From Escherichia coli (GTDB lineage: Bacteria > Pseudomonadota > Gammaproteobacteria > Enterobacterales > Enterobacteriaceae): DNA of 64,000 nucleotides. The DNA is taken from NCBI RefSeq assembly GCF_030013595.1, contig NZ_CP122768.1, one strand, 5' to 3'. Positions 29,001-38,000 of the stretch are shown here, piece after piece. Made by a program: the position numbers. Position 1 is the first letter of the stretch. The number at the start of each line of letters is the position of its first letter.

Positions 29001-32000
29001 GGTAAAATCGTCGAGATTATGTGGCGCAGCTACTGTATTCAAAATGAAATCGAAACTCTTGAGATGAGCCGCCATCTCATCGGCATTGCGTGAGTTAACA
29101 ACTTCATCGGCCCCCAGGGCTTTTGCCGCTTCGCGTTTTGACTCAGAAGTGGTAAATGCCACCACATGCGCCCCCATCGCGTGGGCCAGCTTAATCCCCA
29201 TATGTCCCAGACCGCCGATGCCGACCACGCCCACTTTTTTACCCGGCCCGGCCTGCCAGTGACGTAGCGGCGAATACGTGGTGATCCCTGCACACAACAA
29301 AGGAGCCACCGCCGCCAGCTGCTCTTGCGGGTGACGAATACGCAGAACATATCGCTCATGAACGACGATCTGTTGTGAGTAGCCGCCCAGAGTATGGCCC
29401 GGTTCGTCCGGCGTCGGCGAGTTATAGGTGCCGGTCATGTGATCACAGTAGTTTTCCAGCCCGTCTTCACACTCTTCGCAATGTTTACAACTGTCGACAA
29501 TGCAGCCGACACCGACCAGATCGCCCGGCGCATGTTTTTCTACCTGATCACCAACGGCTACCACACGCCCCACAATTTCATGACCCGGCACGCAGGGGTA
29601 AACCGTCCCCGCCCACTCGGAACGGACCTGGTGGAGATCGGAATGGCAGACGCCACAGTAAGCGATTTCAATTTTGACATCATGCGGTCCCGGTTCACGC
29701 CGGGTGATATCCATCGGTTCCAGCGGTTGTTTAGCGGAATATGCACCAACAGCTTTGATCTTCATTGTGTTTACTCCTGATTAGCTATGTGTATTTGGCG
29801 ATGCCTGATATGTCATCGCGGCAAAACGCGTCCATTGAATATAGCCAATATTTAAACCACCCGATCCAGCCCCAACATGCCGCGAGCCTGAATGAAACAG
29901 AGCAGCAACGTTCCCCATAAAGCCATCGTCAGGTAGGGGCTTATACCGAGAATATTGAAGCCGCTTTCAATAATTTGCAGAAGAAACAGCGCCAGCACCA
30001 TACCAATTATCCGCCCGCTGCCGCCGTCCGGATTAACCCCGCCGAGTACTGCCGCGAGGATTGACACCAGCAAGTACGATTCGCCATAAGAGGCCTTAGC
30101 CGAGTTGAGTTTCGACATCATCAAAAATGCCGCTACCGCACAAAGCAAGGCGGAAATAACATACACCCATATCAGCACCCGACGAGTGTTAATACCGGAG
30201 TAAAGTGTTGCTCGTTCGTTAGAACCAATCAGATAAATGGCTTTACCGAGCGGCGTTTTCTCCAGCAATATCCACAGCCCCAGCGCCACTGCGGTAAACA
30301 ACCACATCGGTAGCGGAATACCGAACCACTGTGCATGATTCAACCACAGCACCCATGAGGGATAATTGGCAATGGCGCTACCGCCTGTCACCAGAATATT
30401 TACCCCTTTGAGCAACGTCATCATCCCAAGCGTTGCAAGAATTGGCGACACTCGAATACCAGCAATCAATACGCCGTTACATAAACCGATTATCACCGCC
30501 GCGCCAGCGCCCGCCAGTAACGTAGCGACAACCGTAGCAATACCCGGTGGATACTGAGTCGCCACCCACGCCATCACCAGTGAACAGGCGTTAGCAGTGG
30601 CAATAATTGACAAGTTAATGCCACCGCAAAGCATGGTCACCGCCATAGCCAACGCCAGAATGCCCAGCACGGGCATTTGCGAAGCGACGGACTGGAAATT
30701 ACTTATCGACCAGAAAATCTCCGGCATAGTAATGCTGAACGCGGCAACAGTTAGCACCAGCAGGCCGATCAAGTAAAACTCAACGTTATTACGCCACGAT
30801 TTTTTCATAGCAGACTCCGGTTCTGATGCTGACTCCACGCCGTGGCGCTAATGCTGGCAACGATGATGATGCCTGTGATCAATGTTTGCCAGTAAGACGA
30901 GACTCCCAATAAATTTAGCCCGTTTTGCATCACTGCCAACAACACCACGCCGAGCAAAGTACCGGTTAACGTGCCGCGCCCGCCGAGCAAACTAGTGCCG
31001 CCAAGCACCACCGCAGCCAGTACTGTCAGCTCATAACCCAGAAGAGAATCGGGGGCGACAGTCATCACCGTCCACGACTGCACTACACCCGCAGCACCAG
31101 ACATCAATCCCATATAGCCATAGACGAAAAGTTGCAGTTTCAGCACACTAAAGCCGATGCGACTGGCTGATTCACGATTCCCGCCAAGGGCATAAATTTT
31201 GCGCCCTACACTGGTGAAATTCATGATAAACGCTGTCAGCAGCACCACCGTAATCATGGCGATCAGCGGCAGACCAAGGCCATAGTCATAGCCGTCAGCA
31301 TCGGTGTACTTGAACAACATAACCCCCTGCTCAAACCACGGCGGAAAGTCGTACAGCCACACACCTTTACTCAACCATAACAGCAGGCCATAGAAAATAT
31401 TCAGCGTCGAGATAGTGATGATGATAGACGGCACCCGTAGGCGATTAACCAGTAAGGCGTTAATTAAGCCAAGTAAAATGCCGATGCCGCCCGCCAGTGC
31501 AAACGCGACAGCAAAGTTGCCACCAATTTTTTGCAGCAACAGCACCATGCCGTATTGCGCAATGATGGTCATTGCCGGAAACGAAATATCAATCCCACCG
31601 GAAATTAACACCACAAACAAACCACAGGCGAGAATAGTCAACATGGCATAGTTATTGGCGAGATCGTACAAATTACCGAATGTCAGAAACTCGTCGCTGC
31701 GCCAGGCAAGGCCAACAAACAGCACCACAATCAGTAATGCCAGCCAGAATTCATGGCGTTTTTTCAGTTCAGCCATTTACCACCTCCGCAATCCTGGCCT
31801 GAGAACTGCTGTCAGGCAGGAAGCTATGGGTGATCTGACCTTTCTGCATTACCAAAATCCGGTGGCTTTGATACCACGCTTCTTCAATTTCATCGCAGAT
31901 CATCAATACCGCAATGCCATGAGCCGCCAGATCGCTGATAATGCCGTATATTCCTGCTTTGTTGGCGATATCAACACCGACAGTCGGGCTATCGAGAATC

Positions 32001-35000: not shown

Positions 35001-38000
35001 AACCATCAGCAAGAGGATCATTGGTTTTTCTATGTTTAATCTTTTTTATCCGAAGCCGGTCACATTTATGGCTTGATAAATACCTTTGTTAAAACTCACT
35101 TTTGTGTATTTCTCTCAAATAATCCCCTGGAAATTATGCCGGGAGATTATAAAGTTCAGGATCATTCATTAGCAAACCATTGCTGCCCCACTCCCTGGGG
35201 CTTTAAATCTCTTACGATTCACCATTGCAGGCGTTTCAAATGCGTATCAACCTGCCACACTCCCCCACACCAGTTGCCCTTTATGGAACGTCGCCGTTCT
35301 CGGCGAGATACGCGCCACCGCCTCGGCGGAACAGGAGGCGTCCACCAGCACAAAACTGGCATCATCCTGCGCTTTGGGCCACACGCGCTCGCCTTTTTCG
35401 TTGAGCGGCAATACATCGCCAGTGGCTAAAAACAGCGAGCGGGAGAGGTTCTGTTCGTTAGGACGAATATAGAGCTGCGCGTACAGATTGGCTTTTTCCA
35501 GCATGTCGCCCAGGCCGTAAGGCGACCAGTGGTCGATAACGCTGTCGGTGCCGGTCATCACTTTTACGCCTTTGTCGTGCAACTGTTTGAGCGGCATATG
35601 CAGCGTGCCAATCGGCACCGTCGAGGCGATAGAAATTTGCTGCGCCGCCATCCGGTGCGCCAGTTCATCTACCTGTTGCTCATTGAGCGTTGCCAGCGCA
35701 AAGGCGTGGCTGATGGTCAGCTTGCCCTTCAGTTGCGGCGTTTTCTCCACCGTTTCAACCATATAATTGATGGCTGCCACGCCTGCCGGAGTGGTTTCGT
35801 GCAGGTGAATATCAACGCCTTTGTCGTAGTCCAGCGCAATCTGGAACATGGTGTCGAGGGATTTTTCCATCGCGCCATCAACACTGGTCGGGTCCAGCCC
35901 GCCGACGTAATGCGCCCCCGCCTGCATCGCTTCGCGCATTAAGGGTTCTGATTTCGACAGCAGCAAACCGTGCTGCGGGAAGGCGACAATTTCACACTCG
36001 AAGCCCGCCTGACGTCGCGCCAGAACCGCCTGCAAATTTTGCAGATTTTTCAGGCCGGAAACCGGTTCGATATTGCAGTGGCTGCGGGCAATGGTAGTGC
36101 CTTTCGACTGCAATAAATCAATCAGTTTTTCCGCCCTTTCCTGAGTGTACGGTTGCAACTCCGGCAGCATTTTCTGCTCGAGTTTGATCATGTCCTGGAT
36201 GGTGGTGCCTGCCGGACGATTGAGCGAGCGCCACGGCCCGCCGTAGAAGGTTTTGTCGAGATGAATATGCATGTCGCGGGTGGTGGGCAGCATCAGCTTA
36301 CCGCCAGCGTCATAGTGCGGCAGCGTGGCGTCCGGATGCTGATTGTTCTCGCGCAGTGCAACAATTTTGCCGTTCTGAATTTCCACAGTCTGGCGCGCCG
36401 TGCGGGTCTGCACCGCCACGCCATTTTCGTAGTCAAAACCGGTTTCCAGCAACACGTTGTCGAGATAGTAGTGCGGGTCAGTGATTTTCATGGTGTTATT
36501 CGCGTCGCAGTGGGTTGTGCCAGAGACTGCCGCATGGGCGAGCGGCACAGAGGTACCAAACAGCGCGGCGGCGGTGACCATCTTACCGCTCTGGCTCAGA
36601 AACTCACGGCGGCTATTGCTTTCTTTCATCTTACGTCCTTACGTTTTAATAATATGGGTGCCCGTTTCACCGCGCAGCGCCGCAGGCAGGCATTCCGGCG
36701 TGGTGATAATCACTTCTTTACCGCCCTGCTCCAGGAACGTCAGGCTGGCGATGATTTTTGGCAACATGCTGCCGGGTGGGAAATGCCCTTCCTGCATATA
36801 GCGGGTCATGGTGGCAATATCCACCCGATCCAGCGCCTGCTGCTGCGGTTTACCAAAATGAATACACACTTTTTCCACGCCCGTGGTGATCACCAGAATG
36901 TCGGCGTGAATTTCGCGAGCCAGTAGCGCGGTAGAGAGATCTTTGTCGATAACCGCGTCCACGCTTTGGTAATCCCCCGCTTCACTGCACACCACCGGAA
37001 TTCCACCGCCGCCCGCGCCAATCACCACAAAACCTTGTTGGATCAGCGCCTTAATGGCAGGTGCTTCGACAATACGTTTCGGTTCCGGCGAGGCGACCAC
37101 GCGGCGATAGCCCCGTCCGGCATCTTCAACAAAACGCCAGTCAGGGTTTGCCTTTTGTAATTCGTCACGCTGGCTTTCACTGAAGAATGCGCCGATGGGC
37201 TTGGTGGGATGAGCAAAACCCGGATCGTTTTTATCCACTTCCACCTGAGTCACCACGGTGACGGCTTTTTTCTCACCGTGACGCGCCAGTCGGTTATTCA
37301 GCGCCTGTTGGATCAAGTAGCCAATGCCGCCTTGCGTATCCGCCACACAGTTCGCCAGCGGCGTTAAGGGCAGCCCTTCGCGCTCGTGGGCAATCTCCGC
37401 GCGGCGTAAATCCAAACCGACCTGCGGTCCGTTGCCGTGGGTCAGCACAATGTCGTAATCGGAAGCCAGCATTTCCAGCACCGTATCGGCGACGGCTTTC
37501 ACCGCCTCCGCCTGATGCTCAATCGACTGGCTGGCGTTATCTTTGATAATGCTGTTGCCACCAATGGCAACGACCACAAGTTCTTTCATGTTGTTATGTC
37601 CGCTACAGTGGGTGATGGGGTTATGACCAACGCCAGACTGCCTGATGCGCTACGCTTATCAGGCCTAGAATTCTCGTGCCATTCGTAGGCCGGATAAGGC
37701 GTTCACGCCGCATCCGGCAGAGACAACGCGCACTTTGCAGGTCAGACGCCGTAACGTTCGCACCAGCCAAGAATGGCTTTTTCGAAGCAGGCGAATGGTG
37801 GATGCACAATGCCCGCGCCAATCATGCCGATGCCCGCATCTTTATGAGCGATGGCGGTGTTGATCACTGGCAGAATGCCGCTACTGCCCACGCGGGTGAT
37901 GTCGATTGCCGACGGCACGCCCATAAAACCGAGCAGCGGAATGGTGACGTTGGGGTTTTCACCGAGAGTGATTTCACGCATCTGGCGAGAGAAATCGATA

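What the first reader, a model, noticed from the sequence alone, without database searches (positions are those of the whole stretch)
29766..35246. Accessory CUT2 sugar ABC transporter plus a small ASCH-like gene between yahK and yahJ
Seen: four co-directional, translationally coupled genes (binding protein, two-NBD ATPase, two permeases) in the order of the ytfQRT-yjfF galactofuranose system, followed by a small cytoplasmic gene. No transposase, integrase or flanking repeats were found. Established (from memory): yahK and yahJ are adjacent in K-12. Inference: a strain-variable uptake system for an unidentified monosaccharide.
Basis: partly seen in the sequence, partly recalled or inferred. 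Interest (0 to 1): 0.45.

Follow-up and report, generated by a model that had tools for sequence, protein, structure and literature searches.

The report
Known Aau D-ribulose/arabinose ABC transporter
This stretch is the already characterised E. coli "Aau" sugar importer, which takes up D-ribulose and weakly L-arabinose under AraC control, plus an unrelated small ASCH gene, so the finding is real but not new.

Summary
The interval between yahK and yahJ holds five minus-strand genes: a small ASCH gene, then a separate four-gene CUT2 ABC importer operon. The binding protein is 325/328 identical to PDB 9I1M, AauA of EHEC. All six D-ribulose-contacting residues are present. The locus is therefore Aau (Z0415-Z0419, O-island 17; Cottam et al., Nat Commun 2024 and 2025). 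Published data give Kd 2 uM for D-ribulose and about 600 uM for L-arabinose, AraC-dependent induction, and AraB phosphorylating the imported D-ribulose.

Corrections:
- ASCH lies upstream of the operon, with its own promoter-like site.
- ASCH is never next to aau outside Escherichia.
- The binding-protein and ATPase genes are not translationally coupled.

Additions from this work:
- K-12 keeps scars of both aauD and ASCH, so its empty site arose by deletion and is not a pre-insertion site.
- The aau promoter has a CRP box plus AraC I1/I2-like half-sites, laid out as in araBAD and conserved in five genera.
- In 26 of the 80 loci from other species, araC sits right beside the Aau-type transporter.

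Novelty: already known. Interest: low.

The parts
29852..30808 (-). aauD (second permease, 318 aa; Z0419 equivalent). Its ATG overlaps the aauC stop as ATGA.
   Evidence: BPD_transp_2, 110 bits. RefSeq annotation of a 99.9% identical genome gives the same start. The last 72 nt (29852-29923) survive as a scar in K-12.
30805..31776 (-). aauC (first permease, 323 aa; Z0418 equivalent). It overlaps the aauB stop by 8 nt.
   Evidence: BPD_transp_2, 118 bits.
31769..33253 (-). aauB (ATPase with two fused nucleotide-binding domains, 494 aa; Z0416-7 equivalent).
   Evidence: Two ABC_tran stretches. Walker A motifs GQNGCGKS (residue 37) and GLLGAGRT (residue 286); signature LSGGNAQ (residue 397). Below the cutoff of every NCBIfam equivalog model.
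33275..33292 (-). GC-rich hairpin (UCGGGGC-GAAA-GCCCCGA) in the 48-nt aauA-aauB spacer. Likely a partial terminator or mRNA stabiliser that favours an excess of binding protein (inferred).
   Evidence: -18.6 kcal/mol for the 66-nt stretch folded; z-score only -1.3.
33302..34285 (-). aauA (periplasmic D-ribulose/L-arabinose-binding protein; Z0415 equivalent). Signal peptide up to ...PLQA|AEK.
   Evidence: 325/328 identical to PDB 9I1M and about 93% identical by eye (not computed) to Klebsiella 3D02 over its 302 aligned residues. K37, W43, E118, H167, E196 and S223 are all present and invariant in 76/76 homologues.
34373..34378 (-). Predicted -10 hexamer TATTCT of the aau promoter, at nearly the same distance from the TCCATA box (42 nt) as the stretch I recall as the araBAD -10, TACTGT (41 nt).
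   Evidence: Anchored alignment. Conserved as TATTCT in Klebsiella and TACTCT in Franconibacter. Prediction only.
34400..34437 (-). Predicted AraC I1-like half-site TGCCCGTTTTGTCCATA (34437-34421) and I2-like half-site TAACCAAATTTTTAATA (34416-34400), a direct repeat 21 bp apart.
   Evidence: The K-12 araI1 and araI2 sequences were verified in L083. TTT(A/G)TCCATA plus 4 nt plus TAGC/TAAC/CAGC is conserved in 9 aau promoters of 5 genera.
34449..34464 (-). Predicted CRP box CGTGATGAATGTCACA. The gap from TCACA to TCCATA is 22 nt in all but one of the aau promoters (the Klebsiella box reads TCACG) and 24 nt in araBAD.
   Evidence: The composite CRP-I1-I2 pattern occurs once in the 64 kb window and in 0 of 100 shuffles (the pattern was chosen post hoc).
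34539..34949 (-). ASCH-domain gene (136 aa, YhfF-like). A separate unit upstream of aau, function unknown, not part of the transporter.
   Evidence: PF04266, 78 bits. PDB 1T62 and 3S9X are uncharacterised structural-genomics relatives. Enterobacterial homologues are 50-65% identical. Absent from aau loci of other genera.
35146..35175 (-). Promoter-like site (TTGCTA-18-TATAAT, 10/12) upstream of ASCH.
   Evidence: consensus match only.
29924..34444 (.). Segment missing from K-12-type genomes (deletion 1: most of aauD through aauA, plus the AraC half-sites). The left limit is exact to about 2 nt and the right limit to about 20 nt.
34587..35183 (.). Segment missing from K-12-type genomes (deletion 2: most of ASCH plus its upstream region).
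   Evidence: This 597-nt piece is present in 2213 genomes, the same number as for the aau-specific piece.
28716..29765 (-). yahK (NADPH-dependent aldehyde reductase), the downstream flank. No terminator-like structure in the 86-nt aauD-yahK spacer.
35247..36629 (-). yahJ (amidohydrolase), the upstream flank.

Best explanation
The four-gene operon is aauABCD, the 'accessory L-arabinose uptake' CUT2 ABC importer known from EHEC O-island 17.

Proposed mechanism:
1. L-arabinose-bound AraC, probably with cAMP-CRP, activates a promoter about 80 nt upstream of aauA. Published genetics show the AraC dependence; the binding sites are predicted here.
2. Periplasmic AauA captures alpha-D-ribulose (published Kd 2 uM) or, weakly, L-arabinose (about 600 uM).
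3. AauA hands the sugar to the AauC/AauD permease heterodimer, which is powered by the double-domain ATPase AauB.
4. Imported D-ribulose is phosphorylated by the AraC-co-induced L-ribulokinase AraB and enters the pentose phosphate pathway (published).

The neighbouring ASCH gene is an independent gene of unknown function.

Evolutionary reading: the operon is a self-contained cassette that carries its own CRP/AraC control region. It has been resident next to yahK since before E. coli split from at least one non-coli Escherichia lineage. Aau-negative genomes such as K-12 lost it by deletion.
For: Identity of the system:
- AauA is 325/328 identical to 9I1M.
- 9I1M is AauA of EHEC, with ITC, crystal structure, AraC dependence and AraB kinase data (PMC12307932, PMC11127945).
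- All six ligand-contacting residues are present and invariant in 76 homologues, against 28% invariant columns overall.
- O157:H7 genomes hold the aau genes at 98.5% DNA identity over the full 4.5-kb aau-specific query (H62) and the ASCH segment (H35); the listed full-length hits with the highest-numbered H ids over the whole 5.6-kb interval, which overlaps both the yahK and yahJ ends, are 98.1-98.2% identical.
- Domain architecture fits CUT2.

Regulation:
- The CRP box, I1 and I2 layout matches araBAD.
- It is conserved in E. coli, Klebsiella, Franconibacter, Mangrovibacter and Symbiopectobacterium.
- The composite pattern is unique in the window.
- An AraC equivalog (499 bits against a cutoff of 208) lies immediately beside Aau-type operons in 26 loci. 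In some of these AraH (578 bits) or AraB (799 bits) is also in the cluster.

Deletion:
- The K-12 scar encodes LALWGTLLLCFIQARGMLGLDRVV*, whose last 23 residues are identical to the AauD C-terminus (the first L replaces M). This C-terminus is conserved in Klebsiella and Franconibacter AauD in unrelated contexts.
- Escherichia sp. E2593 has yahJ, an intact ASCH, the same aauD scar and a CRP-box remnant, then yahK.
- Copies within E. coli are 95-99% identical. That is about the divergence I would expect for core genes; this was not measured here.
Against: - None of the biochemistry was done on this strain's proteins. AauA differs from 9I1M at three positions (D200V, D274G, E297Q), none of them a ligand contact.
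- The AraC, CRP and -10 assignments are motif and conservation predictions. No footprint or transcription start is available, and the composite search pattern was defined after seeing the sequence.
- The I1 A-box is poor (TGCC versus TAGC).
- The direction of evolution is not fully settled. E. albertii and E. fergusonii were not among the 80 loci kept from 151 relatives and were not examined directly.
Confidence: 0.93

Rival explanations
1. It is an autoinducer-2 (Lsr-type) importer, as the RefSeq product name of the binding protein suggests.
For: RefSeq calls the binding protein 'autoinducer 2 ABC transporter substrate-binding protein'. LsrB structures are distant PDB hits at 77-85 bits.
Against: - The LsrB equivalog model scores 107.7 bits against a cutoff of 384. 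LsrA, LsrC and LsrD are also far below cutoff.
- There is no lsrK, lsrR, lsrF or lsrG nearby.
- The near-identical protein was crystallised with D-ribulose, and induction is by L-arabinose through AraC.
Confidence: 0.02
2. L-arabinose, not D-ribulose, is the physiologically relevant substrate. This was the original 2024 reading: a scavenging back-up for AraE and AraFGH.
For: - Induction is exclusively by L-arabinose through AraC, and there is a competitive defect in the mouse gut.
- araC and araFGH lie next to Aau-type operons in several genera.
Against: - Affinity for D-ribulose is more than 200-fold higher, and there was only a weak growth phenotype on L-arabinose.
- The D-ribulose-contacting residues are invariant even in Rbl-type loci that carry a pentulose kinase.
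Confidence: 0.12
3. It is a recently acquired, pathogen-specific island (O-island 17) inserted between adjacent yahJ and yahK, and K-12 represents the ancestral empty site.
For: - It is called horizontally acquired and associated with LEE in PMC11127945.
- It is absent from K-12.
- It sits in different genomic contexts in other genera, so the cassette has moved at some point in the past.
Against: - K-12 and a non-coli Escherichia carry aauD 3' and promoter remnants at the junction.
- There is no integrase, tRNA or direct repeats, and GC across the four transporter genes is 48-53% with no sharp break.
- It is present in 41% of complete genomes, including the commensal HS, at 95-99% identity.
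Confidence: 0.07
4. The ASCH gene is a functional component of the transport and utilisation system, for example by modifying the imported sugar.
For: ASCH-specific and aau-specific segments are found in the same number of E. coli genomes (2213 each).
Against: - A 250-nt gap and a separate promoter-like site separate ASCH from aau.
- ASCH is absent from every non-Escherichia aau locus.
- E2593 keeps ASCH without aau, and L032 keeps aau with ASCH truncated.
- ASCH relatives are widespread at 50-65% identity, and none lies next to aau in the non-Escherichia aau loci examined.
Confidence: 0.04

Closest known systems
Aau (AauABCD, Z0415-Z0419, O-island 17) of EHEC O157:H7
   Same: - The same locus in the same position.
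- The binding protein is 99% identical to PDB 9I1M.
- O157:H7 genomes hold the aau genes at 98.5% DNA identity over the 4.5-kb aau-specific query.
- All ligand-contacting residues are present.
   Different: - This window is not from O157. The best match is a pig commensal-type isolate at 99.9%.
- AauA has three non-contact substitutions relative to 9I1M.
Rbl D-ribulose utilisation locus of Citrobacter rodentium (rblABCD-rblK-rblI)
   Same: - The same transporter family: binding proteins are 57-60% identical in Rbl-type loci such as Citrobacter amalonaticus L064.
- The six D-ribulose-contacting residues are invariant.
   Different: - Rbl-type loci carry an FGGY pentulose kinase (TIGR01315, 692 bits) and a SIS isomerase directly downstream.
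- The window has neither and relies on AraB (published).
- Published regulation of Rbl is independent of L-arabinose.
AraFGH, the canonical high-affinity L-arabinose ABC transporter
   Same: - A CUT2 importer of the AraC regulon.
- In Budvicia, Limnobaculum and Leminorella it sits in one cluster with araC and the Aau-type operon.
   Different: - Only about 34% ATPase identity.
- AraG and AraH models are below cutoff for AauB and AauC.
- AraFGH has a single permease gene, whereas Aau has two.
LsrACDB (AI-2), RhaSTPQ (rhamnose) and YtfQRT-YjfF (galactofuranose) CUT2 systems
   Same: - Same gene order and architecture.
- These are the nearest named NCBIfam models for the binding protein (RhaS 133 bits, LsrB 108 bits).
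   Different: - All are far below their equivalog cutoffs (342, 384; YtfR 410 against 850).
- Different ligand and different regulator.

Membership tests
CUT2 (TC 3.A.1.2) monosaccharide ABC importers | Cluster-B periplasmic binding protein of the Peripla_BP_4 type with a signal peptide | tested here: met
   PF13407, 208.8 bits. N-terminal hydrophobic leader ending in ...PLQA.
CUT2 (TC 3.A.1.2) monosaccharide ABC importers | A single ATPase polypeptide with two fused nucleotide-binding domains | tested here: met
   Two ABC_tran stretches in 494 aa. Walker A motifs at residues 37 and 286.
CUT2 (TC 3.A.1.2) monosaccharide ABC importers | BPD_transp_2 (RbsC-type) permease(s) | tested here: met
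   PF02653 at 118 and 110 bits for the two permeases.
Aau system of E. coli (Cottam et al. 2024, 2025) | Binding protein orthologous to AauA (PDB 9I1M) with the D-ribulose-contacting residues K37, W43, E118, H167, E196 and S223 | tested here: met
   325/328 identity. All six residues are present.
Aau system of E. coli (Cottam et al. 2024, 2025) | Same chromosomal locus as in O157:H7 (O-island 17, beside yahK) | tested here: met
   Genomes with 98.1-98.2% identity cover 100% of the 5.6 kb query, including the yahK and yahJ ends. The aau genes and ASCH are present in strains labelled O157:H7.
Aau system of E. coli (Cottam et al. 2024, 2025) | L-arabinose induction that depends on AraC | not testable with these tools
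   Only a prediction is possible. A conserved CRP box plus I1/I2-like half-sites lies upstream of aauA. The dependence itself is shown genetically in PMC11127945.
Aau system of E. coli (Cottam et al. 2024, 2025) | Micromolar D-ribulose binding and D-ribulose transport | not testable with these tools
   Published for the 99% identical protein.
Lsr autoinducer-2 transporter | LsrB, LsrA, LsrC and LsrD equivalog scores, and linked lsrK and lsrR genes | tested here: not met
   LsrB 107.7 against 384; LsrA 385.5 against 586; LsrC and LsrD below cutoff. No kinase or repressor gene in the interval.
Rbl-type D-ribulose utilisation locus | A D-ribulokinase (FGGY pentulose kinase) and a SIS isomerase encoded directly downstream of the transporter | tested here: not met
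   yahK follows aauD after 86 nt. The kinase and isomerase are present only in the 57-60% identity class of loci.
Classical genomic or pathogenicity island | Integrase or transposase, tRNA or direct-repeat borders, deviant composition, and a clean empty site in strains that lack it | tested here: not met
   No such genes. No flanking repeats. GC is 48-53% across the four transporter genes. The 'empty' site holds aauD and ASCH remnants.

The most novel reading that the evidence does not exclude
Aau-type transporters are an old, widespread arm of the AraC regulon. They travel with a CRP/AraC-controlled promoter and, in many Enterobacterales and Pasteurellaceae, with araC itself. On this reading, D-ribulose co-uptake during arabinose growth is an ancestral design and not an EHEC 'hijack'. 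K-12 and about half of E. coli would then be secondary deletion mutants, not the ancestral state.
Probability: 0.5. Interest if true: 0.3.

Novelty: already known. Interest (0 to 1): 0.12.

Why it matters
The transporter has been characterised genetically, biochemically and structurally, and in mouse colonisation assays, so rediscovering it adds nothing in kind.

The small additions matter mainly for how the published system is described.
- It is carried by about 41% of complete E. coli genomes, including a commensal.
- It shows no island hallmarks.
- K-12 is a deletion derivative.
- AraC control appears to be built into a promoter that is conserved across genera.

Together these points weaken the picture of a pathogen-specific acquired island hijacking host regulation. 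They also give a concrete, testable AraC/CRP site map. Separately, the RefSeq product name 'autoinducer 2 ABC transporter substrate-binding protein' is misleading for this protein.

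Tried and rejected
- Flanking direct or inverted repeats, and microhomology at the deletion ends, were sought with the repeat finder. Only short chance matches were found.
- Terminator between aauD and yahK: none in the consensus scan or by folding.
- Equivalog assignment by NCBIfam: every named sugar system (RhaS, LsrB, AlsB, RbsB, XylF, MglB, AraG/H, YtfR/T) is below cutoff, so naming by those models was rejected.
- Literature searches for the Klebsiella structure 3D02 and for Z0415 gave nothing beyond the two Cottam papers. The latter search was swamped by the drug name DCZ0415.
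- ASCH function: only uncharacterised structural-genomics relatives exist (1T62, 3S9X). A link to yahJ or to aau was considered and dropped, because the gene is independent of aau in other genera and in E2593 and L032.
- I first tried to pair the TCCATA box with the TAGC at 34401-34398 as the second half-site. The spacing (36 nt) was wrong. The cross-genus alignment showed that the I2 A-box is the TAAC 4 nt after TCCATA.

Full report
**Observation.** The interval 29766-35246 is exactly the space between yahK (28716-29765, minus strand) and yahJ (35247-36629, minus strand). All genes in it are on the minus strand. In the direction of transcription the order is as follows.
- An ASCH-domain gene, 34949..34539 (PF04266, 78 bits).
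- A 250-nt gap.
- A Peripla_BP_4 binding protein, 34285..33302.
- A 48-nt spacer with a GC-rich hairpin (33292-33275).
- A 494-aa ATPase with two ABC_tran domains, 33253..31769.
- Two BPD_transp_2 permeases, 31776..30805 (8-nt overlap with the ATPase gene) and 30808..29852 (ATGA overlap).
- 86 nt, then yahK.

GC is 48-53% across the four transporter genes, with no sharp break there. Two details are wrong. The small gene precedes the transporter and is a separate unit. The binding-protein and ATPase genes are not translationally coupled.

**Identity.** The binding protein matches PDB 9I1M over all 328 residues with three substitutions, and Klebsiella 3D02 at about 93% identity by eye (not computed) over that construct's 302 aligned residues. 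A full-text search for 9I1M led to Cottam et al., Nat Commun 2025 (PMC12307932). There 9I1M is AauA, the binding protein of the EHEC 'accessory L-arabinose uptake' system AauABCD on O-island 17. The first paper (PMC11127945) defines the locus as follows.
- Z0415 is the binding protein, Z0416-7 the ATPase and Z0418/9 the permeases.
- Induction is exclusively by L-arabinose and is abolished in a delta-araC strain.
- The mutant has a defect of about 100-fold in mouse-gut competition.
- Carriage is mainly in phylogroups B1 and E.

The second paper reports the following.
- Kd is 1.98 uM for D-ribulose against 598 uM for L-arabinose.
- The crystal structure has alpha-D-ribulose held by K37, W43, E118, H167, E196 and S223.
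- D-ribulose is taken up only when L-arabinose has induced the system.
- The imported D-ribulose is phosphorylated by AraB.

All six contact residues are present in the window's protein. O157:H7 genomes hold the aau genes at 98.5% DNA identity over the full 4.5-kb aau-specific query and also carry the ASCH segment, and the listed full-length hits with the highest-numbered H ids over the whole 5.6-kb interval, which overlaps both the yahK and yahJ ends, are 98.1-98.2% identical. The locus is therefore Aau.

**Family tests.** The CUT2 architecture is met: the binding protein type, the fused double ATPase and the RbsC-type permeases. Every named NCBIfam equivalog is below its cutoff: RhaS 133 against 342, LsrB 108 against 384, AraG 421 against 689, YtfR 410 against 850. 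The RefSeq name 'autoinducer 2 ABC transporter substrate-binding protein' is therefore not supported. The likeness to ytfQRT-yjfF is gene order only.

**Distribution.** Of 5426 complete E. coli genomes, 2211 hold at least 80% of the 5.6 kb. The aau-specific 4.5 kb and the ASCH-specific 597 nt are each found in 2213 genomes, at 95-99% identity. Carriers include the commensal strain HS. Within E. coli the two segments are present or absent together.

**K-12 is a deletion derivative.** A K-12-type genome whose yahK and araB/araC coordinates match my recollection of MG1655 (L001) aligns to the window up to 29923. That is 72 nt into the 3' end of aauD. It then aligns weakly to about 34445-34502 and clearly to 34517-34586, which is the last 48 nt of ASCH plus 22 nt downstream. 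It aligns again from 35184. RefSeq annotates the first remnant as a partial pseudogene. The remnant encodes LALWGTLLLCFIQARGMLGLDRVV*, whose last 23 residues are identical to the AauD C-terminus; the first L replaces M. This C-terminus is conserved in Klebsiella, Franconibacter and Mangrovibacter AauD in unrelated genomic contexts. The 'empty' site therefore arose by two deletions, about 29924-34444 and 34587-35183.

A non-coli Escherichia (sp. E2593, L084; 90-93% DNA identity) shows an intermediate state. It has yahJ, an intact ASCH, a remnant of the CRP-box region and the same aauD 3' scar, then yahK. A further Escherichia genome (L032) keeps aau and yahK but has lost yahB to yahJ and most of ASCH: a yahA-like EAL gene abuts the ASCH 3' end.

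Taken with the lack of island hallmarks, this argues that aau has been at this site since before E. coli diverged from that lineage, and was later lost repeatedly or by spread of a deletion allele. The published label 'horizontally acquired' may still hold for a much older event, because the cassette sits in different contexts in other genera.

**Regulation (prediction).** I confirmed that the sequences I recalled as araI1 (TAGCATTTTTATCCATA) and araI2 (TAGCGGATCCTACCTGA) are present in the K-12 araBAD control region. The aauA upstream region has four elements.
- A CRP-like box, CGTGATGAATGTCACA (34464-34449).
- An I1-like half-site 22 nt further on, TGCCCGTTTTGTCCATA (34437-34421).
- An I2-like half-site in direct repeat at 21-bp spacing, TAACCAAATTTTTAATA (34416-34400).
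- A TATTCT hexamer (34378-34373), 42 nt after the TCCATA box; the stretch I recall as the araBAD -10, TACTGT, lies 41 nt after it.

Nine aau promoters from E. coli, another Escherichia, Klebsiella, Franconibacter, Mangrovibacter and Symbiopectobacterium share the CRP box, the 22-nt spacing, TTT(A/G)TCCATA and the TAGC/TAAC/CAGC four nucleotides later; only the Klebsiella CRP box departs, reading TCACG. The surrounding sequence is otherwise diverged. The composite pattern occurs once in the window and in none of 100 shuffles (the pattern was chosen post hoc). Neither paper maps these sites.

**Context in other genomes.** A scan of 100,044 species-representative genomes returned 80 loci. ASCH, yahJ and yahK flank aau only in Escherichia. 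The loci fall into three classes.
1. Binding proteins 82-93% identical (Klebsiella, Franconibacter, Mangrovibacter, Symbiopectobacterium, Aeromonas): a bare four-gene cassette with variable neighbours.
2. Binding proteins 64-79% identical:
   - Across all 80 loci, 26 have an AraC equivalog (499 bits against a cutoff of 208) within the stretch examined. Most of these, and all those in Pasteurellaceae, Budvicia, Limnobaculum and Leminorella, are in this class with araC immediately upstream.
   - In the last three genera the order is araFGH-like genes, araC, aauABCD, with AraH at 578 bits and AraB at 799 bits.
   - Pasteurellaceae also have an FGGY kinase after aauD.
3. Binding proteins 57-60% identical (Citrobacter amalonaticus, Serratia, Pantoea, Cedecea and others): the transporter is followed by an FGGY pentulose kinase (TIGR01315, 692 bits) and a SIS isomerase. 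This is the Rbl type described for C. rodentium.

The six D-ribulose-contacting residues are invariant in all 76 aligned homologues, whereas only 28% of columns are invariant. The link between this transporter family and AraC is therefore widespread and not special to EHEC.

**The ASCH gene.** It belongs to the YhfF-like ASCH group. The solved relatives 1T62 and 3S9X are uncharacterised. Enterobacterial homologues at 50-65% identity are common. It has its own promoter-like site. It is retained without aau in E2593, and it is truncated beside an intact aau in L032. I treat it as an unrelated neighbour of unknown function.

**Verdict.** The additions here are the deletion scars in K-12, a conserved CRP/AraC promoter map, and araC adjacency in other taxa. 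These refine the published evolutionary and regulatory story without revealing a new kind of system.

Noticed in passing
L001 1653-1727 (K-12-type genome), corresponding to window 29852-29923; and window 34517-34586: K-12 keeps a 72-nt aauD 3' remnant, which RefSeq annotates as a partial 'hypothetical protein' pseudogene. It also keeps a 70-nt remnant spanning the ASCH stop. The K-12 yahJ-yahK junction is therefore a double deletion scar.
   Followed up: yes
L084 9001-9650 (Escherichia sp. E2593): An intermediate allele: yahJ, an intact ASCH, a remnant of the aau CRP-box region and the aauD 3' scar, then yahK. Its deletion breakpoints are close to those of K-12, but I did not show them to be identical.
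   Followed up: partly
L032 6462-8000 (Escherichia coli strain SCPM-O-B-8794 record): aau and yahK are retained, but a yahA-like GerE+EAL gene directly abuts the last ~100 nt of ASCH, with ykgEFG-like Lut genes upstream. The yahB-yahJ block is missing in this lineage. YahL is only 80% identical, so the genome may not be E. coli proper.
   Followed up: partly
L021, L022, L029, L038, L040 (Limnobaculum, Budvicia, Leminorella) and L041-L060 (Pasteurellaceae): araC lies immediately upstream of Aau-type operons. In Budviciaceae the order is araF-like, araG-like, araH, araC, aauABCD, with araB nearby. In Pasteurellaceae an FGGY kinase of unassigned specificity follows aauD (XylB model 107 bits against a cutoff of 380).
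   Followed up: partly
window 29766-29851: There is no terminator-like structure between aauD and yahK, so arabinose-induced aau transcripts might read through into the aldehyde reductase gene yahK.
   Followed up: no
RefSeq annotation of L002 5103-6086 (equivalent to window 33302-34285): AauA is named 'autoinducer 2 ABC transporter substrate-binding protein' in RefSeq, although it scores 108 bits against the LsrB cutoff of 384 and is 325/328 identical to AauA of PDB 9I1M, which was crystallised with bound D-ribulose. This is a misleading product name.
   Followed up: yes
L003 (SFEK01000152.1, 'MAG: Bacteroidales bacterium', 4748-bp contig): The contig carries aauABCD at 99-100% protein identity to E. 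coli. It is almost certainly an E. coli contig mis-binned into a Bacteroidales metagenome-assembled genome.
   Followed up: no
window 36639-39160 and L084 2265-8681: The yahE/F/G/I/J neighbours now hit the Pfam families AllH, AllF (HMA_AllF_N/CoA_binding/Ligase_CoA) and AllG, plus a carbamate kinase and an amidohydrolase. The yah cluster looks like a paralogue of the allantoin-branch allFGH/carbamate kinase genes.
   Followed up: no
NZ_AP023209.1 (68,548-bp record of strain TUM18781), hit H41: A few records classed as plasmids carry the ASCH or aau segments (2 places each). These may be small chromosomal fragments or real transfers onto plasmids.
   Followed up: no
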